Shown: positions 6,142-56,672 of the stretch, piece by piece
How positions within the stretch are numbered: the first letter of the stretch is position 1
Layout: each line of letters begins with the position of its first letter
Source of the DNA: a virus
IMG/VR virus record: IMGVR_UViG_3300013233_000109
Span: 1-64,000 of that record
Reading direction: 5' to 3' (one strand)
Length of the DNA stretch: 64,000 nt
Program-made: the position numbers and the translations under genes
The notes under the pieces: model-generated
Database searches by the model: none
What the model was told of the DNA's origin: nothing
Seen by the model: only the letters and a program-made list of their open reading frames with translations

Positions 6142-7241
6142 TTTGCTAGTGCCTCAATTTGTTGTTCTTTGTAATCACTGTCGCTCCAGTGATATGGATA
6201 TTCTGCGTAATTATCTTTAGTTTTTATACTACTTACATCTAAGTATTTAAACAATTTCTCCCATATTATAGAATAATCAGTAGTGCCAAATGAACGTTCT
6301 AAATCTACTTGGCCTACTTGCGGGTGACCTATTGTTAGCGATTTATCATCTGGATCAAATCCGTTGTTAATTAACCATTTTTTAAAGTTAGCTAATTCAG
6401 TTTTCATGAATTCGTATTCGCCTGGGTTATTGGCCCATTCAATATCAAAGTCACCAGCGGCTTCGGTTTGCGAGCTCAATGTTGTAGTAGTTAATTTGTC
6501 TATATCTTGGCCTTCTTCATCCTGAAATACCTCCCAGTGATGTTTGCCAATTGCTTTGTTTACGCCAACAAACACACCGCCTAGTGGTCTAGCTAAGGTA
6601 TCTACTCCGAATGATTCGTAATCTGATTCTGTTAACTTAAACCGCGGTGCTTGTAAATAACACATTAACTGACTTGGACGCATCCATTCAGGCGCATATT
6701 CTTTCTTGCGATAGCTTAACGCCCAGGATTCAAATTCGTGGCATAATAGATTTAATTGCCTAATGTTCCATTTTGTGTTTGCATCTGCGTTATTATAGAA
6801 TACTGACATATTATTGCTTGTTCCTTGCAAATCTTCAAAGTATTTGTGTAACTGATTCATCTTATCGTGTACTAGTTTGCGGCCGGGCAGTCCGTCGCCG
6901 ATAGCACCGTTGTGATCTTGTATACAGTTTTCCATACTAAAATGATCATCTATTGAATATCCCAAGTCTGCGTTGTTTATGGCATCGCATGTGACGTTCA
7001 TTTGTGCTGTTAGCATTTCTCCATTGCGGGCGTACTCTGGAATGCCGAAAAATTGATAGTTTTTTTCTAAGTGTAGCTTATTTTTAATAATATCGTTAAA
7101 CGCATTGTACCATTTTACGCTCAGTGGATCAGTGTATACGTCAATATACACTGGCATTGTTTCGCTAGTGTCTCTATTTTTTAACGTCATTACTATTGTA
7201 TCAGTTAATTCCTTGGTACCATTCATGTGCTTCGCTGTCAT
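6138..7241 (-). CDS. Hypothetical protein in the radical-SAM operon
   Basis: 367-aa ORF overlapping neighbours; His/Glu motifs LHKYFE, LCHEFE, GKHHWEVFQDE. Exact start uncertain. Confidence 0.75.
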   Translation of the reverse strand: MTAKHMNGTKELTDTIVMTLKNRDTSETMPVYIDVYTDPLSVKWYNAFNDIIKNKLHLEKNYQFFGIPEYARNGEMLTAQMNVTCDAINNADLGYSIDDHFSMENCIQDHNGAIGDGLPGRKLVHDKMNQLHKYFEDLQGTSNNMSVFYNNADANTKWNIRQLNLLCHEFESWALSYRKKEYAPEWMRPSQLMCYLQAPRFKLTESDYESFGVDTLARPLGGVFVGVNKAIGKHHWEVFQDEEGQDIDKLTTTTLSSQTEAAGDFDIEWANNPGEYEFMKTELANFKKWLINNGFDPDDKSLTIGHPQVGQVDLERSFGTTDYSIIWEKLFKYLDVSSIKTKDNYAEYPYHWSDSDYKEQQIEALAK

Positions 7242-19273: not shown

Positions 19274-19302
19274 AGTATAACATAATTTGATACGCAAGTC
19301 AA
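19274..19302 (-). promoter_or_regulatory. Sigma70-type promoter for the GT/radical-SAM operon
   Basis: TTGACT-17 nt-TATACT on the minus strand. Confidence 0.75.
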
Positions 19303-19331
19303 AATAAAAGAGCTATAAAAGCCCTTTTATT
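19303..19331 (-). terminator. Intrinsic terminator ending the tail-fibre transcription unit
   Basis: AATAAAAGGGC-TTTTATA-GCTCTTTTATT on minus strand (G.U only in this orientation), running into TTTTATTTT. Confidence 0.75.
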
Positions 19332-19356
19332 GTATTACTGTATTGCTAGCTAGATA

Positions 19357-34000: not shown

Positions 34001-37000
34001 ATGCTTGCTCTAGTATTTCTGCCGATGATAATTCAAAGACATCGTGCTTGGCTACCCAGTCCACTAATTGATTTTTAAACTTTTCATAGGCGCGTGAACT
34101 GAATTTTATAGAATCGTAAAAATTATATTCATTTTTGCGTATAAATGTTGATGCTAATGCTACTGGTGCCGATTGCTGAATTATATTTAATCCATATGAC
34201 GGAACTTGACCTAGGTCTCGCAAATTATTGGCACCGTTGATATTACCACTAAAATCTAATATGTTTTGTGCTAACGTAATATAGTGATTCCGTATTGTTC
34301 CTAGTGTTAATTCACTTGTATTTCCGTTAAAAACGTTCTGCGACAGATTCTGCGGCACTTGGTAATAACCGTTGCTGCTAGCGGTGTTGCTTATTATTAA
34401 TACTTCGACAGGTGTGCCGATTGCAATATTATTGTTTAACGTTATTAATGTTGAATCTGTTATAGATAATGTGTAGTTATCTGTTGTAACAAATTGATTA
34501 TCGGCAATCACTTTAATTGCAGGGGTCTTTAAATCAATGGTCGGAGTAATGTCCACTACTAGTGGCTTTCCTTCGTAAATATAATTAAATATTTGCGGGA
34601 TATGTGCTATTTCAGCACTTCTGACCCACCCGGTATGCGATGTGTAGTCAGTTATTGTTTGGTATGTTCTAGCAAAGTGCTTGCTTAAATTATCGCTAGT
34701 GCTTGCAGTAACACTAACATAATCAAAACTATCAGTATATAAATCATTTTTAAATGTGATATCGCCTAGGTTACCGATATTTAAATACTTTAGTGGAAAC
34801 CCAAGTACTGTATCATTTTGGCCGGCACCTATAGCATAACTAAATAATTTTGTGCCGATAAATGTCGATGCTGTGTACCGATCTCTATTAGCTAAGCTAA
34901 TACCGTCAGTGTCGAATAAATCGAATAATGGTGGCTGATTTACTTTCGTTTTTTCCTGTGATGGTAACCACGTGCTGTTAGCAAATACATATGATTTGCC
35001 TATTAACGTAGTACCGGAGGTTGTTAATATGTTATGTCCTTCGCTAGTGGCGCTGTCATCTGCTAGCGTTAATACTATTGTTTCATTTCCGTCAGCATTT
35101 AAATCCTCATATGACACTACGAATATTTTGTCTCGGACTGTGGAATCTGTGTCTGCTGCAAAAATAATGCGTGTATTATTTGCTAATTTATAGCCATCTA
35201 CAAAATACCCGGGATTTGTTGCTAATCCATTTATATTGCTTAGCGCATCTGTTTCTGTAAAATCTATTACGTCGACTGGTGTTTTGCCTTGTGTGCCGTG
35301 ATTAAATAGTTTTAAGTTGGCTTCAAATTCTAAGATAGGACGGTTGGCTCTAAAATTATTGTCTGTTACTACTACAGTATTATTATATTCTGCTGTTTTT
35401 GTTATAACATCAATGTGCGTCCAACGATTAGAACGTGACCACGCATTTCTGTCATTGCTAGCTTTGTTTATTGTTATATAATCAGATGTTAATGGCGCAT
35501 CTAAACTGCCGTTATATCCTATTGTATCAAACGGTGATGCTTCGTAAGTATCTAGTATACTATCCGTAAATGGTTCTGGTGTGATGAATTCCGACACTGG
35601 TAATAATTTTATTGCGGTTCCTACACCTTCGATGTAATATTCTACGTCTTGATATTCTTGTGGACTGGTTTGTCCTCTGAATTGTACTTTTAATCCGTTA
35701 GTAAATACAACGCCGTTTGCTGATGTGTATACTTTTTTACCTAGTATCTCGTCAATGAATAATACTGCAGACTCATCTTGATCTACTATATTAATCTTTC
35801 CAAACATTCCTGGATTTGATGAATCTTGATAATATAATGTATCTAGTGTTGCTGTTAATACAGGCACACGTTCGAAGAAGCCTTGGCTGTTTTTAAAGAA
35901 ATCAACATTGCTGTATGTGTCGCCGTGTGTTATTGTTACTTTTTCTAATGTGTTAACTGTTTTAAACGGTAGTAAATCTACGTATGGATTTTCGCCGTTG
36001 ATATCGTATACTAAATTAATCTTAAATATTTGATATCTATCATTCAGATTGTTTATTTCGCTAAATGTTTCAAATGTATTTGAATCGTAACTATCATTAT
36101 TAAAGCGTGTTTGATTTACCCAGCCGGTGTTTGTTCCTAATCCGGTGGTATTATCTAAAAATATTATTGTTTTTCCTTGTAAATCACCTATGTTATTGAT
36201 ACCGTTAGTCAATGATGATACTAAAACATTATTAATGTCGTTATATTTTAAATCTGATGCTAGATCAACTGTTCCTATGTATGTTAATGTTCTGTAAAAT
36301 TCTTGCGAGGTAACGTCTGGTACGTGAAATTCTAATATGCCAGCTGGTGTTCCGTTATTAATAACACCGTCTATGTCACGTGACGTGATGTTACTAGCGT
36401 ATGATGTGCTGCCAGATGTGCCTGGCTCGGTTTGAATATATAGATTTCCCGTTGATGTAAATGTATAATTTCCACTGCGAACTAATGTTATTGTTGGGTT
36501 TTCGCCTGCTATGTCTGCAATGTTATACGTGTTTGATAATGTGTTTTGATTAAAATTAAATTCATCACTTAAAAATATGTCTGTGGCTCCGACATCAACA
36601 CTATCCGGTCCTTGCGGCAGCCAGTAATACTGTGAGTAATTTACAAACTTGTCAAAATCAACAAATGGTGACCAACTGTATGTTTCGCTGCTAAATAGTC
36701 TGTCGTGATTTTGTACATCGGCACCTTTTGTTTCTAATCCGTCAATTAACCCTGGGTATGTTAATACATCCTGTGTGTTATTGTTGCTGTCGTTAAATAT
36801 AATTCCAGGTTCAAGTTGATAATTGGCTCTTGTAACGTCATTTTCTACTATATAAGTATCGGTGCTTGATACACTAGGTCCTGTGCGCTTACCTACAAAT
36901 CCTTGTGTGCGTTTAATCTTTGGTTCTTGTATTAATTGATCGAACGTTGATCCGAGAAACTTTTTATTAGTACTAGTTTGAAAGATCTCTGGAAGAAAAT

Positions 37001-37025
37001 CTACACTGCGTATTCTATCAGCCAT
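25086..37025 (-). CDS. Giant 3979-aa virion protein (putative baseplate wedge, gp7-like position)
   Basis: Uninterrupted 11.9-kb ORF directly after the gp6-like gene; FLPEIFQT..NKKFL..TFDQL, YQLEP, DFDKFVNYSQYYW, YINEVKPYHTKI. Confidence 0.75.
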   Translation of the reverse strand: MADRIRSVDFLPEIFQTSTNKKFLGSTFDQLIQEPKIKRTQGFVGKRTGPSVSSTDTYIVENDVTRANYQLEPGIIFNDSNNNTQDVLTYPGLIDGLETKGADVQNHDRLFSSETYSWSPFVDFDKFVNYSQYYWLPQGPDSVDVGATDIFLSDEFNFNQNTLSNTYNIADIAGENPTITLVRSGNYTFTSTGNLYIQTEPGTSGSTSYASNITSRDIDGVINNGTPAGILEFHVPDVTSQEFYRTLTYIGTVDLASDLKYNDINNVLVSSLTNGINNIGDLQGKTIIFLDNTTGLGTNTGWVNQTRFNNDSYDSNTFETFSEINNLNDRYQIFKINLVYDINGENPYVDLLPFKTVNTLEKVTITHGDTYSNVDFFKNSQGFFERVPVLTATLDTLYYQDSSNPGMFGKINIVDQDESAVLFIDEILGKKVYTSANGVVFTNGLKVQFRGQTSPQEYQDVEYYIEGVGTAIKLLPVSEFITPEPFTDSILDTYEASPFDTIGYNGSLDAPLTSDYITINKASNDRNAWSRSNRWTHIDVITKTAEYNNTVVVTDNNFRANRPILEFEANLKLFNHGTQGKTPVDVIDFTETDALSNINGLATNPGYFVDGYKLANNTRIIFAADTDSTVRDKIFVVSYEDLNADGNETIVLTLADDSATSEGHNILTTSGTTLIGKSYVFANSTWLPSQEKTKVNQPPLFDLFDTDGISLANRDRYTASTFIGTKLFSYAIGAGQNDTVLGFPLKYLNIGNLGDITFKNDLYTDSFDYVSVTASTSDNLSKHFARTYQTITDYTSHTGWVRSAEIAHIPQIFNYIYEGKPLVVDITPTIDLKTPAIKVIADNQFVTTDNYTLSITDSTLITLNNNIAIGTPVEVLIISNTASSNGYYQVPQNLSQNVFNGNTSELTLGTIRNHYITLAQNILDFSGNINGANNLRDLGQVPSYGLNIIQQSAPVALASTFIRKNEYNFYDSIKFSSRAYEKFKNQLVDWVAKHDVFELSSAEILEQALTEINVGKSTTSAFYNSDMIPSGTDFEATQHLVTAISSETFNTVNIFDFTQANNKALLVYLNDTILLKDIDYTVSADSPNVTFLVDLVVDDVILFMEYNSTVASGIPSTPTKMGMYQKYKPVKYLDDTYVTPVNVIRGHDGSITVAFDDIRDDVLLEFEKRIFNNIKVNSDTPLSFNDINPGQFRTTDYTDSEITEILTPSLVSWLGWNKIDYVTQAFDSTNDKTKNYSKSVNKLDGNILKGNWRGIYNHLYDTDSPHTRPWEMLGLSLEPIWWQQQYGPAPYTSGNLVLWDDLALGLIKDPVAPYIAEKYIRPQLLEIIPVDSEGRLLSPLENVVAAHSAFDFQQSWKVGDQSPAESAFRKSSAWPFAVQRLLSLTKPAQYFSLNADRDRYKFSEEHNQYLLDGRSRLNVKELEIASTTNKNSYVNWIIDYNKFYGYNSSAELSNVLANLDVSLCYRMAAFTDKDNLKVFTDRSSPDSLNNSLLLPDESYNLLVHKNQPFDEVVYSAITVQKVQDGYAVYGNSNTDPYFKIRQSLSGGKFKKIVVGNTSRDATTIRIPQTFSNRIAYIPYGYVFTNKHAVVDFIISYGAYLSERGLRFENTENNVEVNWTSMASEFTYWSDQGWGDSAIINLNPAAEALEFEREFTVVDSLLNMAVNEQPQDQNRQLLLPSDYVVDRIENNFKISTINDKIISYLNFNLTSFEHILVLDNTSIFSDLIYDPVTGVRQTRVKLVGFTSTDWNGQVDAQGFLLNDDNVAEWASTSSYNKGEMIRYKNSVYAALEKVSPSELFNLSSWAKIDYTNVATGALPNLATKSNEMLQFYNSKTANLEKDNDLFSLGLIGFRPREYLTSLDLSDISQVNVYQDIVKSKGTASSLDLFRNTTINNAVTDYEIFENWAVKRAEYGATNSRGYVEVQLDETQLNDNPSTVQITNGISAASQQILVGDIFNQSVKHSTNNIYPMRKGNNEDIQLPTAGFVTENEVSFSVFSLNDLSEITSQVNDIVDGSTIWVAKDNDYSWNVYRTKHINPEIIRVSDNLDGTITIDVNSPHTLVTDDKIIIKYVDPQINGAHNITSILSDYKIVIAGSLDAEQIEIENTGNIFLLTSSRVSTPSDIANSDLDNKLFSTDKVWVDTNDNLSHVYAKQDLYAESKTTQPPVINNNYGKIVAQGTGTTGAFVADDTTVYAYTKKATGLVLKEQFAIAAIDIKFNDTTAIVLTSTEIQIIARVESEKAIDYSLVETIPYANGEILALSADNRWFFVSNGIEVTGYNLNNILKYENKGTIPLTNVTAIDVSDNASQIVLGDNTDTVRVYSRVVERFVVEANMPSYTTLRNYSNGAIHINNIVTEDYIAAANVITLANPVVGDFLEVDINDYVEIATIVGTTGSSFGESVSLCNSQCSLYIGSPTDSTQNINEGTVTRYINTARMNGYIISNFTTSLTATDTIRINNIDVFVGTTLSDLVDNINAKNIPNVTSRLFNNQIMIELKNKLLTSLASKLDVLPGIGFAFSDLNFTVYDAAQIIRPPISEINANFGKIVEIDINKNHLLVSSAGTTQKLAPIDNRSTTFDGKSMRLVDAFEKSGAIYTYDILQDVTEFSAGKLAFGQQVYNTTVTSNSLYGNKATLVDGDIIVSTPGSHITLYSASSQARNWESIRSQQPQTDINMINAMYLYSNSSEDILSRLDYIDPLNGKILGAAQQNLDYITPTDPAVYGSATSGILWSKANVGQIWWDVSTVRFVDYFQKDVNVAANLWGSVFKGSSVDVYQWTESKVPPTLFAGDVLDTTNFVSLSEIKDTVIETTYYYWVKNGNTILTNSEKTLSPSAIASYIKSPSSSGIAYAAIINKNTVGLYNTKSKYIDNETVLHVEFDNVKNDANIFQEYELIRENHKTDFLPAGLYKKLLDSFVGADTQGNKVPDIKLNASERYGVNFRPRQTMFKDRLAALKNYILKVNAILITTPAAENKVYPLLKTEEPLPSPTTYDIKVQDLTELEFQNLALVPAGFKYLVVSNESVGGFWTIHEVTPAKILKLTRVQSFDTTRFWKTVDWYKTASSKSEKIQLTVQTINELDSVDFNVVTFVKVLDNSASKWELYQYSNNSWTRVAVQDGTLEFSAALYDYSLLRYGYDFEVYEVQKFDEEPLSELRNILKSINEEILTNDLKIERNILLISVFNYILSEQENVHWLNKTSLIDVNHKVRELLPYAVFNKDNQDYVIDYINEVKPYHTKIKDFKLSYTATDLNDNVITDFDCPSIYSAPYSKFISPVLDDGALLLTEDSNTLASDSIWSAYPHNQWFNNRQIIIDSIELINPGINYTEIPTITITGDANILPVAKARIDSDGLVTSIYIETQGSGFTTTPTVLIEGGNGLDATARIVTKNDLVRSFTTTIKYDRYEYNTNVYTWPLNEADYIKIEENASADRLARINSSSQISTGYDTAPFDTIAFDNISDEILVKYNSSVYTVNSGLLNINDEKFIPSQHTLVDIEELSGMDRTQGFYEPGANDKGLNIPMLINGLEYPGVQINGVDFNTIDGYDLTPYDFGKYDNVTLDNLGFPTFNENILDAEYASKFPGQNILDNTVYTNNEYSIVGYSDSLDEYNGTRPSDVDVVGGGFVDTYSSHAPEELVPGQMFDTLLLTVRTRFGTIDQGNFIEAPDARTVDFRYFQDMRGNYAHYTLHPTVEATLSSPLYASDEVIHVDDTSNLFTPVPSQGLFGIITINGERITYLNKTPTTLYGLRRGTAGTGTMITTPEQFTVNDTSITADNVLLTADAEAVPGASDTGHLAGSLIYNANRETQVPVKTTVLTALEFTVNDFIQEPAPRGKVRYSLVLPGFNGRTGKLSIKLNDAKFNRFQTKAVGTKPLDVKDPAASGFNRANLLPDIELSFIGDPGVFTPTDIMYIDIISYANSWYEINNLGFDPFNDNIVIINNIVINLAPPEEVGFGAEPYDFNVKIPRLEDQFSEQALFIKNEGI

Positions 37026-47847: not shown

Positions 47848-47876
47848 TTGACCATTTTGCTGTACTATGCTATACT
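47848..47876 (+). promoter_or_regulatory. Sigma70-type promoter for gp55-gp47-gp46
   Basis: TTGACC-17 nt-TATACT, then AGGAGA SD and ATG 47899. Confidence 0.8.
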
Positions 47877-47898
47877 AACACATAGGAGAAAACTAATA

Positions 47899-49899
47899 AT
47901 GGCTAGAAAAAAGAAATATCTCAATAATTCGGATATGCTTAAAGAAATACATTTAAGTAAGATTTCATACTGTAAATTTGCCGATAAAGCAAATGATCAT
48001 CAAGAAGATTATATAGTAGAATCAGTAGAAGCAATTAATCAAACAGCGAATGTGCAAGTTTCAAAAGATGAAGCAGGTGAACCTATTATGGGCGATGTGC
48101 CGGTGATTGAGTTAGCTAGAGCTGCTAGAGCTAAGCGGTTAACTAAACTAGATATTCCTACACTAGTAGAGGATGTGTTAGATACTGATCTTGTTTTTCG
48201 TGTTATGACCACTGAACACATACCACTGGTTCCAAAGAAAAAAGCTAAAAAGAAACCAATCGTTAAGAAATCTGAAGTAGTAGCATTATTTGAGGATTTA
48301 ATGGATGAGGTGCCGCTAAAGGAAAATGAAGCTATAATTGACGACGAGGTGGTTGAGATGGTTCCTATGCGTTGTAAATTCCCACCGTTTTTCCACTATC
48401 GCATAGATGAGCAACAAAAACCTTATATTGTAGGGAAATCGCACTGGAAAGGTAACAGCATAGATGATGGGGAATTTTCTATGGAGCATGGGCAGACCAC
48501 CGGGAATCTTGCTATGATGTATATTAAATTATGCGAACGCTACGGCACTAGAAGTAACTGGCGCGGTTACTGCATTCCAGACAATGTCGAAGCACTAACA
48601 AAGAGAGGATGGTTATCCGAGAGCGACATTAATACAGATGATGAAATTTTATCGTACGATGACGGTAACATGCGGTGGAGTGCTATTAAATCTATTTTTA
48701 GAGATCATAATTACAACGGAATGATGCACAGTTTATCAAACATGCACATGGATTATCTTGCAACACCCGGTCACAAATTAGTAACCAATAGAGGTTTAGT
48801 GCCAATTGAATACGTTTTAGGGTCAGACCGTGTTATTTTAATGGGCGAAGCAGAGGAAACATCGTTTAGTCAGATTTATTCCGACGCATTTGTTGAATTA
48901 TTAGGATGGATTGTAACCGAAGGGACTTATCAATTGCCAAAAAAATCTATTCAAATTTACCAAAATGCTGGCCCTTACGCCGACAGAATTCGTAATTGTT
49001 TAATTAAATTAGATTATGGATTTAGCGAGGCACCGCACGGTAAAAGTGGTGTTAATATATGCTTCTCATTGAGAAGACCGGCTTCGGCAGAAATATTCAA
49101 AATATTGCCAGAAAAGAATTTAAACATGGACTTTATTACATCACTTACCCGTGACCAAAGATTTATACTAATCGATACTATGATTGACGGTGATGGGCAT
49201 CGCCTAAAAAATTATAAAGGATCGCCAAGTAGACGATATGATCAAAAATGCAGTACGCACATGGATTTATTTCAAGCGTTATGTTCGATTTCTGGCTACC
49301 GAACACACAACTACAAAAGACTTATGGAAAATTATAGTAAAACCGGGCACATTACTATGAATCGATTAACTTTTTTGTCTAAAAATAAAAATACTACAAA
49401 CGCAGGAAGTATTGACTTCAATGGTGGTTTAGTTAAAAACCGTGGTGTTAATATAAAAAATAAACATAATCACCCTAACAAACCTACTACTCCGTATCAA
49501 GGTACGGTTTGGTGTCCTGAGACTGAATATGGGTGCTTCTTAGCAAGACGCAATGGCAAGGTTTATTTAACCGGCAATACTTACAATGACGAAATGCAAG
49601 GACAAGCATTACTACAATTATCGCAAATTGGCTTGCAATTTAACGAATTAAAATCGCAGAATCCATTTGCATATTATACTGCCGCAGTGACGAATAGTTT
49701 TACCCGGGTGCTGAATATTGAGAAAAAGATGCAAATGATACGTGATGATATTTTAGAGGCAAATGGGCTATCGCCTAGCTGGACTAGACAATTTGAGAAT
49801 GATAAGACGGATACTAAGTATCTAGACGACCATGGTATCTTAAAGGAAGATGATTCGTGTGAGGCTGGTGACGTTAAGGTTATATACGAGGAGAAGTGA
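47899..49899 (+). CDS. gp55: Late-transcription sigma factor (gp55-like), intein-containing
   Basis: KYLNN.DML N-terminus; removing the intein restores RSNWRGY/TYNDEM..ALLQ....F..KSQNPFAYYT....NSF.RVL..EKK; next to gp47/gp46 as in T4. Confidence 0.88.
   Translation: MARKKKYLNNSDMLKEIHLSKISYCKFADKANDHQEDYIVESVEAINQTANVQVSKDEAGEPIMGDVPVIELARAARAKRLTKLDIPTLVEDVLDTDLVFRVMTTEHIPLVPKKKAKKKPIVKKSEVVALFEDLMDEVPLKENEAIIDDEVVEMVPMRCKFPPFFHYRIDEQQKPYIVGKSHWKGNSIDDGEFSMEHGQTTGNLAMMYIKLCERYGTRSNWRGYCIPDNVEALTKRGWLSESDINTDDEILSYDDGNMRWSAIKSIFRDHNYNGMMHSLSNMHMDYLATPGHKLVTNRGLVPIEYVLGSDRVILMGEAEETSFSQIYSDAFVELLGWIVTEGTYQLPKKSIQIYQNAGPYADRIRNCLIKLDYGFSEAPHGKSGVNICFSLRRPASAEIFKILPEKNLNMDFITSLTRDQRFILIDTMIDGDGHRLKNYKGSPSRRYDQKCSTHMDLFQALCSISGYRTHNYKRLMENYSKTGHITMNRLTFLSKNKNTTNAGSIDFNGGLVKNRGVNIKNKHNHPNKPTTPYQGTVWCPETEYGCFLARRNGKVYLTGNTYNDEMQGQALLQLSQIGLQFNELKSQNPFAYYTAAVTNSFTRVLNIEKKMQMIRDDILEANGLSPSWTRQFENDKTDTKYLDDHGILKEDDSCEAGDVKVIYEEK
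48571..49578 (+). mobile_element. 336-aa intein with LAGLIDADG homing endonuclease
   Basis: Block A CIPDNVEALTKRGW, block B ATPGHKL, LAGLIDADG motifs LLGWIVTEG and LIDTMIDGDG, block F/G VWCPETEYGCFLARRNGKVYLTGN followed by Thr(+1). Confidence 0.93.
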
Positions 49900-51841: not shown

Positions 51842-53752
51842 ATGATTAAGATACGTAATCTCACCTGCAAGAACTTTATGTCCGTAGGTAACGCTAGTCA
51901 AGCTGTGAATTTCGACAGAAGCGATTTAACCCTTGTGCTGGGGGAGAATTTAGATCTCGGTGCGAATGGTTCTAAAAATGGTACGGGAAAAACTTCTCTG
52001 ATTAACGCACTAAGTTATGCTTTTTACGGTGAGGCGCTTACTAAGATACGTGTTAATAATCTCATTAACAAGACTAACGAAAAGAATATGCTTGTTAGTG
52101 TTGAATTTGATATCAATAATGATGAGTACAGAATCGAACGTGGACGCAAACCTAATTTATTAAAGTTTTACAAAAATAACCAAGACTTAGATGATGCACA
52201 GGATGATGCGCAAGGTGATAGTAGAGAAACACAAAAGGAAATTGAAAAATTACTAAATATAAGTCACGATATGTTCAAGCATACTATCGCGCTAAACACA
52301 TACACCGAGCCCTTTTTATCTATGAAGGCGAATGATCAAAAGAATATCATTGAGCAATTATTAGGTATTACCGTTTTAACAGAAAAAGCAGAATTATTAA
52401 AAGATGTTACCAAATTATCTAAAGAAGGAATTAAAGAGGAAGAATTTCGAATATCGGGACTTATTAAAGCCAACGAGCACATTGAAGAGCAAATATCAAA
52501 TCTGGAACGACGTCAGCGTATATGGCTTAAACAAAACACTTCCGACCAAGCAGATATAACGTCTGCTATTAGCGCGCTCACTGGCGTTGATATTAATCTA
52601 GAAATTGCTGCACATACAGCTAACGCAGAAGCTATTATTAATGCTGATAAAATTAATACTGCTGAGAAATTTGATATCGATAAATGTAATGCTGAATTTG
52701 CTTTACAACAAGATCAAGAGAAAGCTGAATTAACTAAACATACGTTAGCAGTTAACGAATGTAATAAATGGATTGACCGTATAGAACGCGATAATAAAAC
52801 ACTAGCACGTAATGTAACCGGCTTACAAAAGGATATTGATTTAATTAAAGATCATAAATGTCACGCTTGTGGGCAGGATTTGCACGATGCTAAGCAAGAA
52901 GAAAACATAGCGTTCAAGGAAAATGAATTACAGAAGATTGCGTTACAATTACTTACTAATCAAGAACAAGAGATGGAACATAAGCAAACACTAGCAGATT
53001 TAGGTGAGGCTCCGCTTGCTATTCCGGACGTGAACGATACTAGAGATTATGCGCCAGTTTTACCTAAAGTTATAGAAACTTTTTATAAAACGGTAAATGA
53101 GGCACATGAGCATAAATCCTCGCTCGCTACGCTCACAGCACAATTAGCTACGGTGAAGGCAGCGGTGGATCCGTACAGTGACCAGATTACAGAAATGGCC
53201 GAATCTGCTTTACAGGATGTAGATTATACTGAGATGAATCGTTTAACTGAATTAAACGCACATCAGACATTTTTGCTTAAACTTTTAACTAGCAAAGATA
53301 GCTTTATTCGTAAAAAGATTATTGAACAGAATTTAAATTATCTCAATGGGCGATTAACACATTATCTTAGCGAAATTGGGTTACCGCATACTGTAAAATT
53401 CTTATCGGATTTGTCCGTGGAGATTACAGACCTCGGTAGAGAATTGGATTTTGACAATCTAAGCAGGGGCGAGCGTACTAGACTTATTTTATCACTATCG
53501 TGGTCATTCAGAGATGTACTCGAAAGTATGTACAGTCATATTAATTTGATGTTCGTAGACGAATTAGTAGATAATGGTCTAGATACCACTGGCGTGGAAG
53601 CTGCCATTAAGATTTTAAAGGGCATGGCGAGAGAACGTAATAAATCTGTATGGCTAGTGTCGCATAGAGAAGAATTAATAAGTCGTGTTAATAACACGAT
53701 GAAAGTTATTAAAAGTAATGGCTTTACTAGCTATGAAGGGTTAAACGAATGA
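51842..53752 (+). CDS. gp46: Recombination ATPase subunit (Rad50/SbcC-like)
   Basis: KNFMSVGN, Walker A NGTGKTS, zinc hook CHACGQ, signature LSRGER, Walker B FVDE, VSH. Confidence 0.95.
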   Translation: MIKIRNLTCKNFMSVGNASQAVNFDRSDLTLVLGENLDLGANGSKNGTGKTSLINALSYAFYGEALTKIRVNNLINKTNEKNMLVSVEFDINNDEYRIERGRKPNLLKFYKNNQDLDDAQDDAQGDSRETQKEIEKLLNISHDMFKHTIALNTYTEPFLSMKANDQKNIIEQLLGITVLTEKAELLKDVTKLSKEGIKEEEFRISGLIKANEHIEEQISNLERRQRIWLKQNTSDQADITSAISALTGVDINLEIAAHTANAEAIINADKINTAEKFDIDKCNAEFALQQDQEKAELTKHTLAVNECNKWIDRIERDNKTLARNVTGLQKDIDLIKDHKCHACGQDLHDAKQEENIAFKENELQKIALQLLTNQEQEMEHKQTLADLGEAPLAIPDVNDTRDYAPVLPKVIETFYKTVNEAHEHKSSLATLTAQLATVKAAVDPYSDQITEMAESALQDVDYTEMNRLTELNAHQTFLLKLLTSKDSFIRKKIIEQNLNYLNGRLTHYLSEIGLPHTVKFLSDLSVEITDLGRELDFDNLSRGERTRLILSLSWSFRDVLESMYSHINLMFVDELVDNGLDTTGVEAAIKILKGMARERNKSVWLVSHREELISRVNNTMKVIKSNGFTSYEGLNE

Positions 53753-54283
53753 TTACTTATAGTAGATATCTATAACATTAAACTCAGTGTATAGCTTATC
53801 TAATAATTTTGTTAATTTTTGAGATTTTGGATACACTGGTACTTTCTTCTTGGGATACTTTACTTTAAATAATTTAATCATTTTATTAAACGTTGATTTT
53901 TTTATTTTTGGCTTCTTTGGAACTTCGCTCGGGTGAATAAAATAATCACCGTCCTCTGTATACGCACCGGCTTCTAGGTAATCTGCTAAATTACGCAAAT
54001 AGGTTGGCAAATCTGTTGGGTGTTTTGAAGTATCGGCACTATAATAACGTTTCCAATTGTTAGTGATCTTCCCTTCCATTGCATTTGCCCTGAATTCAAT
54101 GGCGTTGCGTATAGTTCCTTTATCAGTGGCATACGGTTCCGATTTTAGTTTATGTATATGATCTAGTGCCATTTTTTCTACCGGGACAGGAATTCCAAGC
54201 AAGGGGCAGATGCCGTTATTTTCCTTGTGAAGTTTTTCTTTAAGAATTTTAATATCCTTTTGTTTAAGCTCTTTAAATGCCAT
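53753..54283 (-). CDS. Endonuclease VII-like (gp49 family) His-Me nuclease
   Basis: Pattern N.G.CPL...LDHIH...G.IR....N.MEG...LRNLADYL..HP matches the EndoVII layout; TATAAATA at 54289-54296 precedes the ATG. Confidence 0.7.
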   Translation of the reverse strand: MAFKELKQKDIKILKEKLHKENNGICPLLGIPVPVEKMALDHIHKLKSEPYATDKGTIRNAIEFRANAMEGKITNNWKRYYSADTSKHPTDLPTYLRNLADYLEAGAYTEDGDYFIHPSEVPKKPKIKKSTFNKMIKLFKVKYPKKKVPVYPKSQKLTKLLDKLYTEFNVIDIYYK

Positions 54284-54322
54284 AGTAGTATTTATATGGT
54301 GTTAAATAAGTAGCAATAATAC

Positions 54323-54351
54323 TTGACAGATGAGTTATTATCTACTATAAT
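54323..54351 (+). promoter_or_regulatory. Perfect-consensus sigma70 promoter facing a non-coding region
   Basis: TTGACA-17 nt-TATAAT; no + strand ORF of 60 aa or more until 55265. Confidence 0.88.
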
Positions 54352-54357
54352 ATATGT

Positions 54358-54812
54358 ATATTAAGAAAAAATAGTTATCGAGATTTACGTGATAACTACT
54401 ATTACAAAACAAACATAAGCATGGCAGTACGCGGTTGATTTCTGCCAATCAAGACACTCACTGTAACACGGGGTTTCCGCTGATTAATCGAGTTTTTGTT
54501 GCTCGCTTTAACACACTACCCGAAAGGGCGCCATTAAAATTAAGACCTGAATGTGCATTGTAGCAGTCAGACAATCTTTGCTTTGTGTTATCGGAATGGT
54601 TATTTCTTAGAAATAAGAAGTATTTTAGTGAGTGGGACGTCAAGACGCCATCTAATTTATTAGATACAGTTACCCCACAATGCATTATCATTAGCTTGGG
54701 TATATAAGCTGATAATGTATACGTTGTAGATTAAATTCTAGATTCACATGTAATGGAGAGAACGTTAACCTGCTCCCCTCTAGCGATAGAGTTATGCTAT
54801 ATACCCTGTGGC
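54358..54812 (+). ncRNA. Candidate large structured non-coding RNA, family not recognised
   Basis: Nested long-range helices, two GNRA tetraloops (CCC-GAAA-GGG, CTCTA-GCGA-TAGAG) and a 9-bp loop-to-downstream pairing; lies behind the consensus promoter. Ends are approximate. Confidence 0.72.
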
Positions 54813-55188
54813 TAAATCTTTAAAGAACTTTTCTTTTGATTTCGTATCATTTAGTAGTTTGATTCTGTGGCTTTAAAATCTTTTAAAATTGCTTTAAAAA
54901 ATGAAGTTCTCATTTAACTCTCAGTTCAGGTCTGCCTACTATTCACTACGTTCATAGCAGTCATTGATTCATCTCATCTGAGCTGAGAATCATCGATTTA
55001 CTTCTTTATTTCTTTTAGCTGATATATAAGCAAAAACATATACATCTCTCATATAACAGTCAAAATATATTACAATATCTAAATTAATTAATTCTGAAAG
55101 AATGCTGTACGAGTTAATGAAATTAACGATGTATTCATTCTATACGAGCACAGCGAAGTATAGACATGAAAGAGAATTGCTGCCACAG
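54806..55188. other. Candidate replication-origin-like element
   Basis: AT-rich tract; CTGTGGC twice plus one inverted copy; opposite-facing hairpins with tandem GA/GA mismatches and 3-nt loops. Confidence 0.45.
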
Positions 55189-55264
55189 TATATCATTAAA
55201 CTCTAGTAATGACTAAAGCATCAAGAATATTATTAACCTGTGTTTAAACACCATAAATACAAGT

Positions 55265-55561
55265 ATGAATATAAATGACTTAAAAGGCTCGAGCGATATC
55301 TATTATTTAGGTAGGGCAATGTGGAAAAAACAAGAAAGTGCTACATGGCAAAAGAAAGTTAAAAAATTAGCTAAGACTACTAAAACTCACTGGTCTGGAA
55401 ACGCAAGCAATGCCGATGCGTTCAGTGTTTCAAAATCATATAAATTATTCAATGAAAGCACTAACAAAGTAGTAGCAACCATAACAGAATCTGAATTAAA
55501 AATGCTAAAACACGCTAGTGTAAAAATACGCTCGGAACGTGACGGGATCTTAGACTGGTAG
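55265..55561 (+). CDS. Hypothetical basic protein, late and apparently leaderless
   Basis: 98-aa ORF; CATAAATA at 55252-55259 lies 5 nt before the ATG. Confidence 0.65.
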   Translation: MNINDLKGSSDIYYLGRAMWKKQESATWQKKVKKLAKTTKTHWSGNASNADAFSVSKSYKLFNESTNKVVATITESELKMLKHASVKIRSERDGILDW

Positions 55562-55614
55562 CTAAATACCGACCTACCACAAAATACATCATTTTTGTAA
55601 GGTAGTGATATTTC

Positions 55615-55851
55615 TCAAAAGTACGGAAGCCCACTCTTTTCTGTCGTTTTCATATTCTCTTTAGATAGTTTAGCGATCATATCGCGTTCTGCTGCAGATA
55701 AATTCAAACAATCGTTGTATTGAATACCACCACGCATAGCCCAGGTTAGGCTCATAGCGTTCTCTTTAATGATATTACATTCCTTTTCTAAGTCATCAAC
55801 ATAAGCGGAAATAGCCTCGGCATCGAGGGCCAATAACTTTACTCGAAAAAA
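55615..55851 (-). CDS. Tail-chaperone C-terminal extension, probably reached by -1 frameshift
   Basis: The -1 frame is open from the T TTT TTC heptamer: FFRVKLLALDAE..W.MRGGIQY...L...ER..ENMKTTEKSGLPYF; the TTG start has no SD. Confidence 0.65.
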   Translation of the reverse strand, partial: FFRVKLLALDAEAISAYVDDLEKECNIIKENAMSLTWAMRGGIQYNDCLNLSAAERDMIAKLSKENMKTTEKSGLPYF

Positions 55852-56672
55852 GACGTCATATCCAGTGTAAACGGCTGTTCGTACTTATGTCCGCAATCAT
55901 CACACGTAATAGATAATGGTTTAAGATCAGTTTTAGCACGCTCGCTAACAATATGAGATTTGATACCGTTGTAAATAGCTCTCTCACAATTCTGTAGATA
56001 CGCTAAAATATGTTCTGGATCATCCACTACGGCACCCGGTACAGCTATATTACTAATATTTTTCACAAGCGTATCTAGTGTGTATTTAGAGACTTTTTTA
56101 AATGCGTCCGATAACAGTTTAATACGCTCCTTCTCAGGAAGTGTATCATCTTGCTTAACAATCATTTGCTGTAATTGCTGTTCTTCAAATTGAATCTGAT
56201 TATTCTCATTCATCTCGAAATAAGTTAACGGTTTAAAAGTAACAGAAATATCACCAGCATCAAACGTATTATGATAATCTGGCGAATGTAAATTATCTAG
56301 CACATCGTGTAAATTTAGTTCATAATCGGACATTTCGTTGCATTCGGGGCAAGTAGTGCTAATCTCCATATTATGTGAGAAGCTAGCTATACGTATCGCA
56401 GCTAATATAGCAGTAATATCAATGCTCGGCATTTGCCACGGATCAATTATACTAGGAATACAGCTTTTAATAACATCAACTAGTGCTGAACCATTGAATA
56501 GTGCATCTGGGGTTCGATAAGTAATTTCGTCCAATGATGTCATAGGATAAACAGGCAGTTCTTTCGTCTCGGGCATATCTAACGTACCCTCGGGATAAAA
56601 GCTACCTTTGCTCGGTAGTGCTAGGTGTATTGCTGGTTTGCGGAAGTAGCCCGCTAGTGGATTTTCATTCAT
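55839..56672 (-). CDS. Baseplate hub/tail assembly chaperone (gp26-like)
   Basis: LPSKG, PMT..DE, AIRIAS, CPEC and CDDC Zn motifs, C-terminal LDMTSFF; divergent from the tape-measure gene. Confidence 0.75.
   Translation of the reverse strand: MNENPLAGYFRKPAIHLALPSKGSFYPEGTLDMPETKELPVYPMTSLDEITYRTPDALFNGSALVDVIKSCIPSIIDPWQMPSIDITAILAAIRIASFSHNMEISTTCPECNEMSDYELNLHDVLDNLHSPDYHNTFDAGDISVTFKPLTYFEMNENNQIQFEEQQLQQMIVKQDDTLPEKERIKLLSDAFKKVSKYTLDTLVKNISNIAVPGAVVDDPEHILAYLQNCERAIYNGIKSHIVSERAKTDLKPLSITCDDCGHKYEQPFTLDMTSFFE

What the first reader, a model, noticed from the sequence alone, without database searches (positions are those of the whole stretch)
54806..55188. Opposite-facing GA-sheared/triloop DNA hairpins after the RNA: a possible RNA-primed origin
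Seen: the minus strand at 54939-54957 reads CTAT-GA-AC-GTA-GT-GA-ATAG. The plus strand reads TAC-GA-GTTAAT-GAA-ATTAAC-GA-T-GTA at 55108-55133 and CTATAC-GA-GC-ACA-GC-GA-A-GTATAG at 55140-55163. One architecture (stem, tandem GA/GA, short stem, 3-nt loop) thus faces both ways across an AT-rich core where T-richness turns to A-richness. CTGTGGC occurs at 54806 and 54865 and inverted at 55182. Known: sheared GA pairs and GNA triloops stabilise ssDNA hairpins; T4 origins use promoter-driven R-loops; ColE1 uses a long structured pre-primer RNA followed by a primosome site containing GAGCGCAGCGAG. Inference: promoter, structured RNA and hairpins together may form a ColE1-like, RNA-primed bidirectional phage origin.
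Basis: partly seen in the sequence, partly recalled or inferred. Interest (0 to 1): 0.75.

Follow-up and report, generated by a model that had tools for sequence, protein, structure and literature searches.

The report
Conserved G·A hairpin tail after phage RNA
The hairpins are real, and one of them is this phage's copy of a hairpin signal that giant T4-like phages keep just downstream of a large non-coding RNA gene; it may mark where DNA copying starts, but that is not yet shown.

Summary
The window is a fragment of a jumbo T4-like phage related to PA5oct and Rak2/121Q.

The plus-strand hairpin at 55139-55164 is the local form of a strand-specific hairpin (stem / G·A G·A / 2 bp / 3-4 nt loop). 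In relatives a second hairpin abuts it. A model of the pair matches 73 of 100 related loci, once each, always on the RNA-sense strand. 14 of its 16 pairs show compensatory change.

It always follows a promoter-driven structured RNA. The scan met this "twin-box" RNA, partly Rfam RF01718, many times before on other DNA. The two direct CTGTGGC(T) copies fit that family's twin boxes.

The opposite-facing hairpin, the inverted CTGTGGC and the long AT-rich core are not conserved as such. Skew says nothing.

In PA5oct a paralogous RNA annotated from RNA-seq ends 41 nt before its hairpin copy. In 121Q a plus-strand terminator-like site lies upstream of the hairpin and a minus-strand one downstream. 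ColE1 has almost the same hairpin core downstream of RNA II.

My readings are a single-stranded-DNA initiation signal of an RNA-primed origin (0.4) or an RNA-level boundary element (0.35). Neither is proven.

The parts
54323..54351 (+). Sigma-70-type promoter-like site (TTGACA-17-TATAAT) that fires into the gene-free gap; context for the hairpins
   Evidence: 12 of 12 consensus positions. A 12-of-12 site stands at the same place in PA5oct. By eye, its paralogue at 12.8 kb also has TTGACA-17-TATAAT.
54358..54872 (+). Putative structured RNA (context). It is probably a divergent member of the jumbo-phage 'twin-box' RNA family. The 3' limit is set here at the second twin box and is inferred.
   Evidence: Same syntenic slot as the RNA of relatives. 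There is no Rfam match at E<=1 and no nhmmer match to the relatives' profile. Membership rests on position, the promoter, one shared 13-mer with L005 and the twin boxes.
54806..54813 (+). First copy of the 8-mer CTGTGGCT (twin box 1)
54865..54872 (+). Second copy of CTGTGGCT, 59 nt after the first (twin box 2)
   Evidence: In relatives an exact direct repeat of 6-9 nt lies upstream of the hairpin in 60 of 61 modules. Its spacing is 48-61 nt in 51 of those 60, and the word differs between phages.
54813..55107 (.). AT-rich spacer, T-rich then A-rich on the plus strand
   Evidence: It is about 235 nt from box 2 to the first plus-strand hairpin, against 14-50 nt in most of the 60 relatives scored. 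Spacers of about 85-250 nt are seen in L003-L005, L017, PA5oct and 121Q.
54936..54960 (-). Minus-strand hairpin: 7-bp stem with one G-T, tandem G·A, 2-bp stem, GTA loop
   Evidence: The model R1 gives 13.4 bits, E 0.58. No orthologue was found in relatives; 12 of 61 have only a small mirrored core, mostly without an outer stem, 6-31 nt upstream of their plus-strand hairpin.
55108..55133 (+). Plus-strand hairpin with G·A pairs at the base of a 6-bp stem and a GAA loop
   Evidence: The same type (short outer stem, tandem G·A, long inner stem) is seen in L003-L005, L017 and 121Q.
55139..55164 (+). Plus-strand hairpin: 7-bp stem, tandem G·A, GC, 3-nt loop, GC, G·A plus bulged A. This is the local copy of the conserved hairpin HP1.
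   Evidence: R1 gives 17.0 bits, E 0.05 at 55128-55211, second best in the whole window with filters off. Only the first hairpin of the model aligns; the second is replaced by an insertion.
55182..55188 (-). Inverted copy of CTGTGGC
   Evidence: An inverted copy of the twin-box word is found in only 4 of 60 relatives, so it is probably incidental.

Best explanation
The hairpin at 55139-55164, and probably its neighbour at 55108-55133, is this phage's copy of a conserved, strand-specific hairpin signal. The signal belongs to a repeated unit of Rak2/PA5oct-like jumbo phages: promoter, long structured 'twin-box' RNA, A/T-rich spacer, hairpin(s).

I think it most likely works as folded single-stranded DNA of the non-template (RNA-sense) strand. 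The steps I infer are these. Transcription of the upstream RNA opens the duplex, possibly through an RNA-DNA hybrid anchored by the twin boxes. The displaced strand folds into G·A / GNA-capped hairpins that resist single-strand-binding protein. The hairpins then serve as an entry or priming site for a helicase or primase. That would make the unit an RNA-primed origin with a single-strand initiation signal, as in ColE1.

Shown: the element exists, is conserved with covariation, is strand-specific and travels with the RNA. Inferred: that it acts as DNA, and that it starts replication.
For: 1. Conservation. The RNAalifold consensus of 60 distinct modules has 16 pairs, 14 with compensatory changes. 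The model matches 73 of 100 loci at E<=0.01, one per locus, always on the RNA-sense strand. It matches once in each of three 337-347 kb genomes. Most matches are training sequences.

2. Paralogues in PA5oct. The hairpin is duplicated with an identical 32-nt core, while its 16-17 bp outer stem is rewritten with full compensation.

3. The hairpin seems to lie outside the RNA. PA5oct ncRNA004 is annotated from RNA-seq at 246116-246734 and is a paralogue of this RNA. It ends 41 nt before its hairpin copy. In 121Q a plus-strand terminator-like site lies about 100 nt upstream of the hairpin, and the minus-strand terminator of the convergent operon lies downstream.

4. DNA-like loops. 31 of 61 second-hairpin loops are GNA triloops. 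18 of the 31 G-initial first-hairpin tetraloops (of 36 tetraloops in all) are GNNA but not GNRA. There are no UUCG loops. 40 of 61 modules hold an exact GCG(N)NAGC word. Such DNA mini-hairpins melt at 76.5 C against 39 C for the RNA form. They occur at the G4 complementary-strand origin, RSF1010 ssiA and N4 promoters (PMC13037366, passages and section 4.2 read).

5. No G-U excess. There are 14 G-U against 18 A-C cells out of 960.

6. ColE1 (NC_001371). It has the same stem / GA / GC / GTA / GC / GA / stem hairpin at about 1327-1345, on the RNA II-sense strand about 580 nt beyond RNAI. Its 11-nt core is identical to that of L009, L011 and L014. In ColE1 the hybrid displaces the non-transcribed strand and exposes helicase/primase sites (PMC4412123, PMC3167613, passages).

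7. Twin boxes co-vary as identical direct repeats without a complementary partner: 60 of 61 have the repeat and 4 of 60 an inverted copy. This is what RNA pairing with template DNA, as with the ColE1 rG/dC stretches, would produce. That last step is inference.
Against: There is no experimental or read-depth evidence of initiation.

Cumulative GC and AT skew in the 72.9-kb contig and in a complete 347-kb relative simply follow gene orientation.

The hairpin is on the same strand as an adjacent RNA and directly follows it, so base rates favour an RNA element.

In the compact freshwater clade the A-rich 5' flank and the weak T-run after the second hairpin look like a bidirectional terminator between convergent genes.

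In 121Q copy 4 the hairpin lies between a promoter-like site and a gene start, that is, in a 5' leader. In the window, L004, PA5oct and Phosso a plus-strand gene follows.

The G-U test is weak. The best-supported hairpin inside the RNA also has few G-U pairs (5 G-U, 3 A-C of 264 cells).

GCG(N)NAGC words are common in coding background, and none of the window's three hairpins carries an exact one.

The phage model scores the ColE1 hairpin at only 6.6 bits (E 6), so this is resemblance and not homology.

In 121Q the plus-strand terminator-like hairpin lies between the twin boxes, so it may be an internal RNA hairpin and not the RNA's end.

RNA-seq-based ends are approximate.
Confidence: 0.4

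Rival explanations
1. RNA-level element. The hairpins are transcribed and act in RNA. They could be the 3' tail of the twin-box RNA (end formation or protection against exonucleases), a processing or insulating boundary between the RNA and the next gene, or a 5'-leader stabiliser of the downstream mRNA.
For: The hairpin is always on the sense strand of the RNA and directly downstream of it. It lies 14-50 nt after box 2 in most of the 60 relatives scored. It travels with the RNA in every paralogue examined: 3 units in PA5oct and 4 in 121Q.

No plus-strand terminator-like site separates RNA and hairpins in the window.

A plus-strand gene follows in the window (55265), L004, PA5oct, Phosso and 121Q copies 2-4. 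In 121Q copy 4 the hairpin sits between a promoter-like site and a ribosome-binding site.

Tandem G·A in a Y-GA-R context is stable in RNA too (recalled).
Against: PA5oct ncRNA004, annotated from RNA-seq, ends 41 nt before its hairpin.

Loops are mostly GNA or non-GNRA GNNA, with no UUCG, and there is no G-U excess.

The second hairpin is followed by a real T-run in only some relatives. The window and PA5oct locus 1 have none.

A mirrored core on the other strand in 12 of 61 relatives and in the window has no obvious RNA role, unless it is an alternative pairing partner.
Confidence: 0.35
2. Plain bidirectional transcription terminator or insulator between convergent transcription units, with no further role.
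For: In the compact clade the module sits between the RNA (plus) and convergent minus-strand genes. Its A-rich 5' flank becomes a T-run after the hairpin on the minus strand, and a short T-run follows the second hairpin on the plus strand.
Against: It occurs once per 337-347 kb genome in 3 of 3 genomes, so it is not the phages' general terminator.

The purine-purine mismatches and G...A loops are conserved on one strand only.

In the window there is no A-run, no second hairpin, no terminator-like site and no convergent gene next to it.

121Q has separate terminator-like sites on both sides.
Confidence: 0.08
3. Only the hairpin at 55139-55164 is a conserved element. The minus-strand hairpin at 54936-54960 and the inverted CTGTGGC are chance features of an AT-rich spacer, so there is no designed 'opposite-facing' pair. 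This can hold together with any reading above.
For: Minus-strand hits of the finder in relatives lie inside a conserved 110-aa coding frame and are not homologous. Only 12 of 61 relatives have a mirrored 11-nt core, mostly without an outer stem. The inverted twin-box word occurs in 4 of 60. Shuffles of the window give about 1 such hairpin by chance. The closest relatives are too distant to align the spacer.
Against: The minus-strand hairpin is the fourth-best match of the family model in the whole window (13.4 bits). It folds on the minus strand but not on the plus strand (-3.3 against -0.5 kcal/mol). Mirrored cores are about three times commoner than background upstream of the hairpin: 15 against 5.2 expected. 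L080 has a mirrored core with the same inner stem as the window's.
Confidence: 0.55
4. Hairpin-forming sites that are cut by the phage's SbcCD-like gp46/47 nuclease or by its junction resolvase. The cuts would create breaks that seed recombination-dependent replication.
For: The primary copy always lies next to the gp47-gp46-resolvase genes. T4-like phages replicate mainly from recombination intermediates (recalled).
Against: The paralogous units in PA5oct and 121Q lie elsewhere in the genome. The conserved strand-specific G·A and G...A features are not needed for a cruciform or palindrome target. There is no direct evidence.
Confidence: 0.05

Closest known systems
ColE1/pMB1 origin: RNA II pre-primer followed by the single-strand initiation site ssiA (n' primosome assembly site)
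   Same: Both have a promoter-driven long structured RNA. Both have a hairpin on the RNA-sense (displaced) strand downstream with the same build: short stem, tandem G·A, GC, GNA triloop, GC, G·A, stem. The ColE1 record has it at about 1327-1345, with an 11-nt core identical to that of loci L009, L011 and L014. ColE1 RNA II has two identical G-runs (seen at 928-933 and 1175-1180). One of them must pair with the template dC stretch (PMC4412123, passage). The phage RNA has two identical co-varying boxes.
   Different: There is no sequence homology: the family model gives 6.6 bits on ColE1. No RNAI-like antisense RNA was found (no Rfam hit). The host is a T4-like phage with its own replication genes. 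The phage hairpin lies 14-235 nt after box 2, against about 150 nt after the ColE1 switch point. That the ColE1 hairpin lies inside ssiA is recalled and was not checked here. No R-loop or priming is shown for the phage.
Single-strand initiation signals and DNA mini-hairpins (G4 complementary-strand origin, St-1/alpha3, RSF1010 ssiA/ssiB, N4 virion-RNA-polymerase promoters)
   Same: Both are strand-specific stable hairpins capped by a G...A sheared pair. GCG(N)NAGC words occur in 40 of 61 relatives' modules. In the phages two or three hairpins stand side by side. RSF1010 has two signals on opposite strands (PMC13037366, section 4.2).
   Different: The window's own hairpins have no exact mini-hairpin word. 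No cognate primase or polymerase is identified. A T7/N4-type RNA polymerase domain was not found in 4 genomes, but the control was silent. Activity is untested.
T4 oriF/oriG: middle-mode promoter plus downstream DNA unwinding element, R-loop primed
   Same: Both are in a T4-like phage and have a promoter followed by an AT-rich stretch. In T4 the primase can prime on the displaced non-template strand (PMC4412123, passage). The units are multiple per genome in 121Q (4) and PA5oct (3), as T4 has several origins.
   Different: T4 origin transcripts are not long conserved structured RNAs, and no conserved hairpin signal is described for them (recalled). The promoter here is a perfect sigma-70 type and not a MotA-type middle promoter. 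The AT-rich stretch is not conserved in the compact clade.
Polynucleobacter-1 RNA motif (Rfam RF01718; Weinberg et al. 2010, PMC2864571, table row seen only)
   Same: The RNA upstream of the hairpin in locus L067 matches RF01718 at 91 bits, E 3e-18, about 250 nt before the hairpin.
   Different: The Rfam model covers only a 141-nt front part of one subtype: 1 of 7 loci scanned matched. It does not include the hairpin tail. The window does not match at E<=1. The function is unknown in the paper's table.
PA5oct ncRNA004 ('putative lncRNA', Lood et al. 2020, PMC7318152; passages and Table 1 read)
   Same: It is a paralogue of the RNA in the syntenic PA5oct gap (83% identity over 122 nt). It is followed by a copy of the same hairpin. 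It is evidence that this RNA family is transcribed.
   Different: The paper does not mention the paralogy, the hairpins or any origin ('origin of replication' occurs 0 times in the text). The syntenic copy at 75.8-76.7 kb is annotated there as four tiny ORFs.

Membership tests
Jumbo-phage hairpin tail (HP1-HP2 module; defined here, unpublished) | HP1: 4-8 bp covarying outer stem, tandem G·A in a Y-GA-R context, 2-3 bp inner stem, 3-4 nt loop, often a bulged A | tested here: met
   55139-55164 has a 7-bp stem, GA, GC, 3-nt loop, GC, GA and a bulged A. R1 gives 17.0 bits, E 0.05, with filters off over the whole window.
Jumbo-phage hairpin tail (HP1-HP2 module; defined here, unpublished) | HP2: a 6-9 bp perfect hairpin abutting HP1 (61 of 61 relatives) | tested here: not met
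   The model aligns only HP1, and a 31-nt insertion replaces HP2. A second G·A hairpin (55108-55133) stands 5 nt upstream instead.
Jumbo-phage hairpin tail (HP1-HP2 module; defined here, unpublished) | Lies on the sense strand downstream of the promoter-driven RNA, in the gap between gp46/resolvase and the baseplate hub | tested here: met
   Synteny; promoter.
Twin-box jumbo-phage RNA family (scan's name; front part = Rfam RF01718 in one subtype) | Two identical 6-9 nt direct repeats about 48-61 nt apart near the 3' end, upstream of the hairpin | tested here: met
   CTGTGGCT at 54806 and 54865, spacing 59. An 8-mer repeat at such spacing in a 1-kb AT-rich gap is not rare by chance, so this is suggestive only.
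Twin-box jumbo-phage RNA family (scan's name; front part = Rfam RF01718 in one subtype) | Sequence or structure similarity of the RNA core | tested here: not met
   No Rfam match at E<=1. No nhmmer match to the 44-sequence profile, although L003, L004, L006, L009, L010 and L014 match. Only a 13-mer is shared with L005.
ColE1-type RNA-primed origin | Persistent RNA-DNA hybrid processed to a primer (RNase H / Pol I) | not testable with these tools
   Needs DRIP or primer mapping. No RNA run holds the stretch.
ColE1-type RNA-primed origin | Antisense RNA I control | tested here: not met
   The Rfam scan of 53500-56000 finds no RNAI, whereas ColE1 gives RNAI at 73.8 bits.
ColE1-type RNA-primed origin | Hairpin initiation site on the displaced strand downstream of the RNA | tested here: inconclusive
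   The architecture is the same as the ColE1 hairpin at about 1327-1345. The function of the phage hairpin is untested, and the model score on ColE1 is not significant.
Single-strand initiation signal / DNA mini-hairpin | Exact GCG(N)NAGC mini-hairpin word | tested here: not met
   None of the window's three hairpins has it. 40 of 61 relatives' modules do.
Single-strand initiation signal / DNA mini-hairpin | Strand-specific primer synthesis on single-stranded template | not testable with these tools
   Needs an M13 origin-defective assay or in-vitro priming.
T4 oriF/oriG type origin | Promoter followed by an AT-rich unwinding element | tested here: inconclusive
   A perfect sigma-70-type promoter. 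AT-rich stretches of GC 0.22-0.25 begin about 460 nt downstream, after the RNA. A MotA-type promoter was not looked for.
Intrinsic (rho-independent) terminator | G+C-rich hairpin followed by a T-run | tested here: not met
   No plus-strand terminator-like site in 53500-56000. The candidate at 54960-55000 folds no better than shuffles (z 0.23).
N4-type hairpin promoter | A phage-encoded N4/T7-like RNA polymerase that reads hairpin promoters | tested here: inconclusive
   PF00940 has 0 matches in 4 genomes, but the control genomes were silent too. The 3979-aa protein matches only a 'virion structural protein' family. The PA5oct abstract says it relies on host RNA polymerase.

The most novel reading that the evidence does not exclude
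The promoter / twin-box RNA / hairpin units are the replication origins of Rak2/PA5oct-like jumbo phages. They would be single-copy in the freshwater clade and number 3-4 per genome in PA5oct and 121Q. In this reading the large conserved RNA (including the orphan Rfam motif Polynucleobacter-1) is a ColE1 RNA II-like pre-primer. Its first box re-pairs with template DNA at the second box to lock an R-loop. The G·A / GNA hairpins on the displaced strand are the loading or priming signal for the lagging strand. A further possibility is that the mirrored core seen in some phages, and the window's minus-strand hairpin, serve the opposite fork.
Probability: 0.3. Interest if true: 0.85.

Novelty: new variant of a known kind. 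Interest (0 to 1): 0.6.

Why it matters
To my knowledge (recalled, not searched), origins of replication have not been mapped in jumbo T4-like phages. The Rfam motif Polynucleobacter-1 is listed without a known function in the one paper found.

If these units are RNA-primed origins with a dedicated hairpin signal, a plasmid-type initiation logic (ColE1 plus ssi) would be at work in 300-kb phages. Several observations would then be explained: the multi-copy 'lncRNAs' of PA5oct, a use for the extraordinarily stable G·A mini-hairpins, and a handle for building phage-dependent replicons.

If the hairpins act in RNA instead, they define a new conserved boundary motif of a widespread phage RNA.

Either way the question is now directly testable in cultured phages of E. 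coli (121Q, PBECO4) and Pseudomonas (PA5oct), which carry the same element.

Tried and rejected
Nucleotide searches. Searching the 981-nt gap against 50,697 phage records gave no match. Blastn against the first 16 loci gave only 13-20 nt words.

Skew. Whole-contig and whole-genome skew was run as an origin test. The minima coincide with gene-orientation switches (about 47.8 kb in the window; 140-190 kb block in G001) and not with the element. This is uninformative and not negative, because skew tracks transcription here.

Expression. No RNA holder is listed. One DNA run shares 0.11 of the words, and an RNA run of the same sample shares next to none. I did not lay reads.

Closer relatives. The metagenome scan with the hub protein gave at most 45% identity, so short-range conservation of the spacer and of the minus-strand hairpin could not be tested.

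Plus-strand terminator at 54960-55000. Rejected (z 0.23; not listed).

PA5oct hairpin at L001 about 6770-6800. It looks terminator-like by eye but fails the scan's T-run rule.

Minus-strand 'G·A hairpins' about 190-1200 nt to the right in relatives. Rejected as coding, because they lie inside a conserved 110-aa frame.

Hammerhead and kink-turn readings of HP1. Considered and dropped. CUGA is not conserved, and the bulge is on the wrong side of the G·A pairs (rules recalled).

N4-type promoter reading. No polymerase domain was found, but the control was silent.

Downstream small ORFs (window 55265-55561, L004, PA5oct gp337). No family at E<=0.001, and only noise at E<=1.

G-U against A-C test. 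It gives no clear verdict, because the control hairpin inside the RNA is equally poor in G-U.

Host islands. I scanned genome contigs with a 19-nt RNA-core pattern to look for islands carrying RNA plus hairpin. 48 stretches came back. Only 3 hold the module, in two MAGs that may contain binned phage contigs. The claim in earlier notes that Polynucleobacter islands and small phages carry the RNA was not tested.

Literature. 'Polynucleobacter-1' gave 1 paper, of which only a table row is relevant. 'PA5oct' plus 'non-coding RNA' gave 12 papers. 'RaK2/121Q/non-coding RNA/intergenic' gave 6 papers, none on this element. Supplements (PA5oct promoter and terminator tables S3, S4) were closed and could bear on where transcripts end.

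Rows dropped. A2 used 60 of 62 distinct module sequences. L011, almost identical to L009, and a false hit at L075:617-683 were left out. A3 used 44 of 53 upstream stretches; L006, L009, L010, L011, L014, L019, L036, L072 and the false L075 hit were left out.
Full report
WHAT THE WINDOW IS

The 64-kb window is most of a 72,894-bp linear virus contig with no terminal overlap. CheckV puts its completeness at 21%.

The genes around the finding are T4-like:
- a gp55-like late sigma factor
- gp47 (SbcD-like)
- gp46 (SbcC-like)
- an endonuclease VII-like gene on the minus strand (53753-54283)
- the 981-nt gene-free gap (54284-55264)
- a 98-aa ORF
- a gp26-like baseplate hub
- a 750-aa protein
- a gp20 portal

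The best protein matches are jumbo phages: Pseudomonas PA5oct (gp46 47%), Sinorhizobium Phosso and Agrobacterium Atu_ph07 (about 40%), and the Rak2/121Q group (about 34%). PA5oct, Phosso and E. coli phage 121Q all have the same gene order. Each has a 0.8-1.5 kb gap without credible genes between the resolvase gene and the hub.

THE OBSERVATION

Under strict rules written after the fact, they are the only three such hairpins on either strand of the window. About one is expected by chance (1.12 +/- 1.07 in 100 shuffles), and all three lie within 226 nt. Their nearest-neighbour DNA folding energies are modest.

CTGTGGC is not enriched in the window as a whole (7 against 4.28 +/- 1.89), but 3 of the 7 copies are in the stretch. 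The switch from T-rich to A-rich is real. A perfect TTGACA-17-TATAAT site at 54323-54351 points into the gap. No Rfam family matches it at E<=1.

CONSERVATION

I fetched 14 loci through gp46 and 80 through the hub protein from IMG/VR.

A canonical hairpin core with an outer stem of at least 4 bp is present on the window's plus sense in 71 of 96 loci examined. That gives 62 distinct sequences, one of them a false hit.

The element has two abutting hairpins.
- HP1 has a 4-8 bp outer stem, tandem G·A, an inner stem, a 3- or 4-nt loop, and G·A again. The inner stem is GC in 46 cases, AC in 9, GT in 3 and GCT in 3. A bulged A is present in 37, no bulge in 21 and a bulged T in 3.
- HP2 has a perfect 6-9 bp stem in 61 of 61. 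Its loops are GTA (13), GCA (10), GAA (8), GTTA (5) and others.

The bases flanking each GA are always pyrimidine before and purine after.

The RNAalifold consensus of 60 distinct sequences has 16 pairs, 14 with compensatory double changes. A covariance model (R1) matches 73 of 100 loci at E<=0.01. It matches once per locus and always on the sense strand of the upstream RNA. Most of these are training sequences or their duplicates. It matches exactly once in each of three genomes of 337-347 kb (two complete with terminal repeats, one 95% complete). So it is not a general terminator.

In the window, with filters off, the model's second-best hit is 55128-55211 (17.0 bits, E 0.05, HP1 only) and its fourth is the minus-strand hairpin (13.4 bits, E 0.58). 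The top hit, at 19275, looks unrelated.

The window's closest relatives are L003-L005 and L017, with hub identity of 55-58%. They, PA5oct, Phosso and 121Q carry variants in which the G·A pairs sit at the base of a longer stem or on top of a 14-17 bp stem. The window's hairpin at 55108-55133 is of that type.

WHAT IS NOT CONSERVED

- Minus-strand hits of the finder in relatives lie inside a coding frame.
- A small mirrored core lies 6-31 nt upstream of HP1 in 12 of 61 distinct modules. It is tandem GA, GC, 3-nt loop, GC, GA on the minus strand, mostly without an outer stem. The count was 15 hits in 8,974 nt against 5.2 expected.
- It could equally be an RNA partner of the HP1 core. In L080 it has the same inner stem as the window's minus-strand hairpin and would pair poorly with its own HP1.
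- The opposite-facing idea therefore has a faint echo, but it is not a family rule.
- The long AT-rich spacer is special to the window-type, PA5oct and 121Q lineages. In the compact clade only 14-50 nt separate the RNA from HP1 in most loci.

THE RNA AND THE CTGTGGC COPIES

Upstream of the module, relatives share a highly conserved region of about 400 nt. In L067 its front part is Rfam RF01718, the Polynucleobacter-1 motif, at 91 bits; 1 of 7 loci scanned matched. The one paper that names this motif only lists it, and its function is unknown.

After I had found the paralogues described below, the scan's earlier notes told me this family had been met many times on other DNA. They call it a 'twin-box' RNA that carries two identical co-varying words.

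I tested that claim. An exact 6-9 nt direct repeat lies upstream of HP1 in 60 of 61 modules. Its spacing is 48-61 nt in 51 of the 60. More than a dozen different words occur, each identical within its locus. An inverted copy is found in only 4 of 60.

The window's CTGTGGCT pair (54806 and 54865, spacing 59) fits this pattern. Phosso (an 11-mer, spacing 66), 121Q and PA5oct paralogue 2 have such pairs too.

The window's RNA core itself is not detectably similar to the family. Its membership is therefore inferred from position, promoter and boxes.

PARALOGUES AND THE ONE PIECE OF EXPERIMENTAL ANNOTATION

The 121Q gap matches 71 phage records, at 4-5 places in each of the 40 listed records but five Klebsiella ones (1-2 places).

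121Q has four same-direction copies of the RNA. Hairpins with GNA triloops follow each within about 30-110 nt. The strict finder flags copies 1 and 4; copies 2 and 3 were read by eye.

PA5oct has three units. The one at 246 kb is the published ncRNA004, which the record annotates from RNA-seq as 246116-246734. Its HP1 copy starts 41 nt after that end. It shares an identical 32-nt core with the syntenic copy but has a rewritten, fully compensated 17-bp outer stem.

In 121Q copy 1 a plus-strand terminator-like site lies about 100 nt before the hairpin, and the minus-strand terminator of the hub operon lies about 100 nt after it. That plus-strand site lies between the twin boxes, so it may be an internal hairpin of the RNA.

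In 121Q copy 4 the hairpin lies between a promoter-like site and a gene start.

DNA OR RNA?

For DNA:
- The loops are of the G...A type whatever lies between. 31 of 61 HP2 loops are GNA. 18 of the 31 G-initial HP1 tetraloops (36 tetraloops in all) are GNNA but not GNRA. There are no UUCG loops.
- 40 of 61 modules hold an exact GCG(N)NAGC word. According to a 2026 review, such words form DNA mini-hairpins melting at 76.5 C against 39 C for RNA. The review places them at the G4 complementary-strand origin, RSF1010 ssiA and N4 hairpin promoters (PMC13037366).
- G-U pairs (14) are no commoner than A-C (18) among 960 cells. Predicted pairs of the upstream RNA have 311 G-U against 20 A-C.
- The PA5oct and 121Q layouts described above point the same way.

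Against, or for RNA:
- The control is weak. The best RNA hairpin also has only 5 G-U against 3 A-C.
- The mini-hairpin word is common in coding DNA and absent from the window's own hairpins.
- The element is always sense to the RNA and next to it.
- In the compact clade its A-rich 5' flank and the short T-run after HP2 look like a bidirectional terminator between convergent genes.
- A plus-strand gene often follows.

THE ColE1 COMPARISON

It is flanked by a 3-bp stem with one bulged base. It is on the strand opposite to RNAI (645-749 minus). That places it on the RNA II-sense strand, about 580 nt beyond RNAI.

Its 11-nt core is identical to that of L009, L011 and L014. The phage model does not score it significantly (6.6 bits).

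Two papers, of which I read passages, describe the ColE1 mechanism. The ColE1 hybrid displaces the non-transcribed strand and exposes helicase/primase sites. An rG stretch of the RNA must pair with a dC stretch of the template. Pol I extension exposes ssiA (PMC4412123; PMC3167613). Two G6 runs are visible in the ColE1 sequence.

Twin boxes that must stay identical, without a complementary partner, are what RNA-to-template pairing would produce. That is inference.

VERDICT

The bidirectional, opposite-facing design and the inverted repeat are not supported.

The element is a conserved, strand-specific hairpin tail of a widespread jumbo-phage RNA unit. I put 0.4 on a single-stranded-DNA initiation signal of an RNA-primed origin. 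I put 0.35 on an RNA-level boundary element, and the rest on terminator-only or other roles.

Nothing in print describes it, as far as my searches reach. The scan has seen the RNA, and in two notes its hairpin tail, before on other DNA.

The decisive experiments are simple and can be done in 121Q/PBECO4 and PA5oct.

Noticed in passing
window 47848-49899 (+): The gp55-like late sigma factor is 683 aa long. Its PHROG matches fall in two separated stretches (residues 17-247 and 577-656), as if a large insert split it.
   Followed up: no
window 53753-54283 (-); L001 5170-5667; L059 (oriented) 1553-1981; L127 8018-8509: The gene slot just upstream of the RNA holds different nucleases in different phages. 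It is endonuclease VII-like in the window and 121Q, RusA-like in PA5oct, 'Holliday junction resolvase' in Phosso, and a 142-aa GIY-YIG/homing-endonuclease-like protein in the freshwater clade.
   Followed up: partly
L067 7749-7883 (-): The RNA upstream of the hairpin module matches Rfam RF01718 (Polynucleobacter-1) at 91 bits. This orphan motif is therefore the front part of a jumbo-phage RNA. Only 1 of 7 loci scanned matched, so the Rfam model covers one subtype.
   Followed up: partly
NC_071039.1 246116-246734 and 12.8-13.5 kb; NC_025447.1 near 90.3, 192.8, 247.5, 326.5 kb: The RNA is multi-copy in cultured phages, with 3 units in PA5oct and 4 same-direction copies in 121Q. One PA5oct unit is the published ncRNA004. 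The syntenic PA5oct copy (75.8-76.7 kb) is annotated as four 38-50 aa hypothetical proteins instead.
   Followed up: partly
window 19275-19340 (+): This is the best hit of the hairpin model in the window (19.3 bits, E 0.011). It lies in a short gap between two minus-strand genes. It lacks the G·A core and looks like an A-rich flank plus a terminator-like hairpin, so it is probably unrelated.
   Followed up: no
L160 672-887 (+), L169 3999-4207 (-), L153 103-324 (+): Contigs of 148 kb and 183 kb binned into a Haliscomenobacter MAG, and a 1.7-kb Flavobacteriales MAG contig, carry the RNA core word plus the hairpin module. They may be jumbo-phage contigs binned with bacteria.
   Followed up: no
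L011 (and L009), upstream of its hairpin: The twin-box word of L011 is GCCACAG, the reverse complement of the window's CTGTGGC. The window has GCCACAG once, at 55182-55188. This may be coincidence.
   Followed up: no
window 25086-37025 (-): A 3979-aa ORF matches a 'virion structural protein' family over residues 836-1763 and three further stretches. I saw no sign of a polymerase domain.
   Followed up: no
L002 7774-8160 (+): In Phosso the first gene after the hairpin is annotated ribonuclease HI. That is suggestive for an R-loop reading, but it was seen in one phage only.
   Followed up: no
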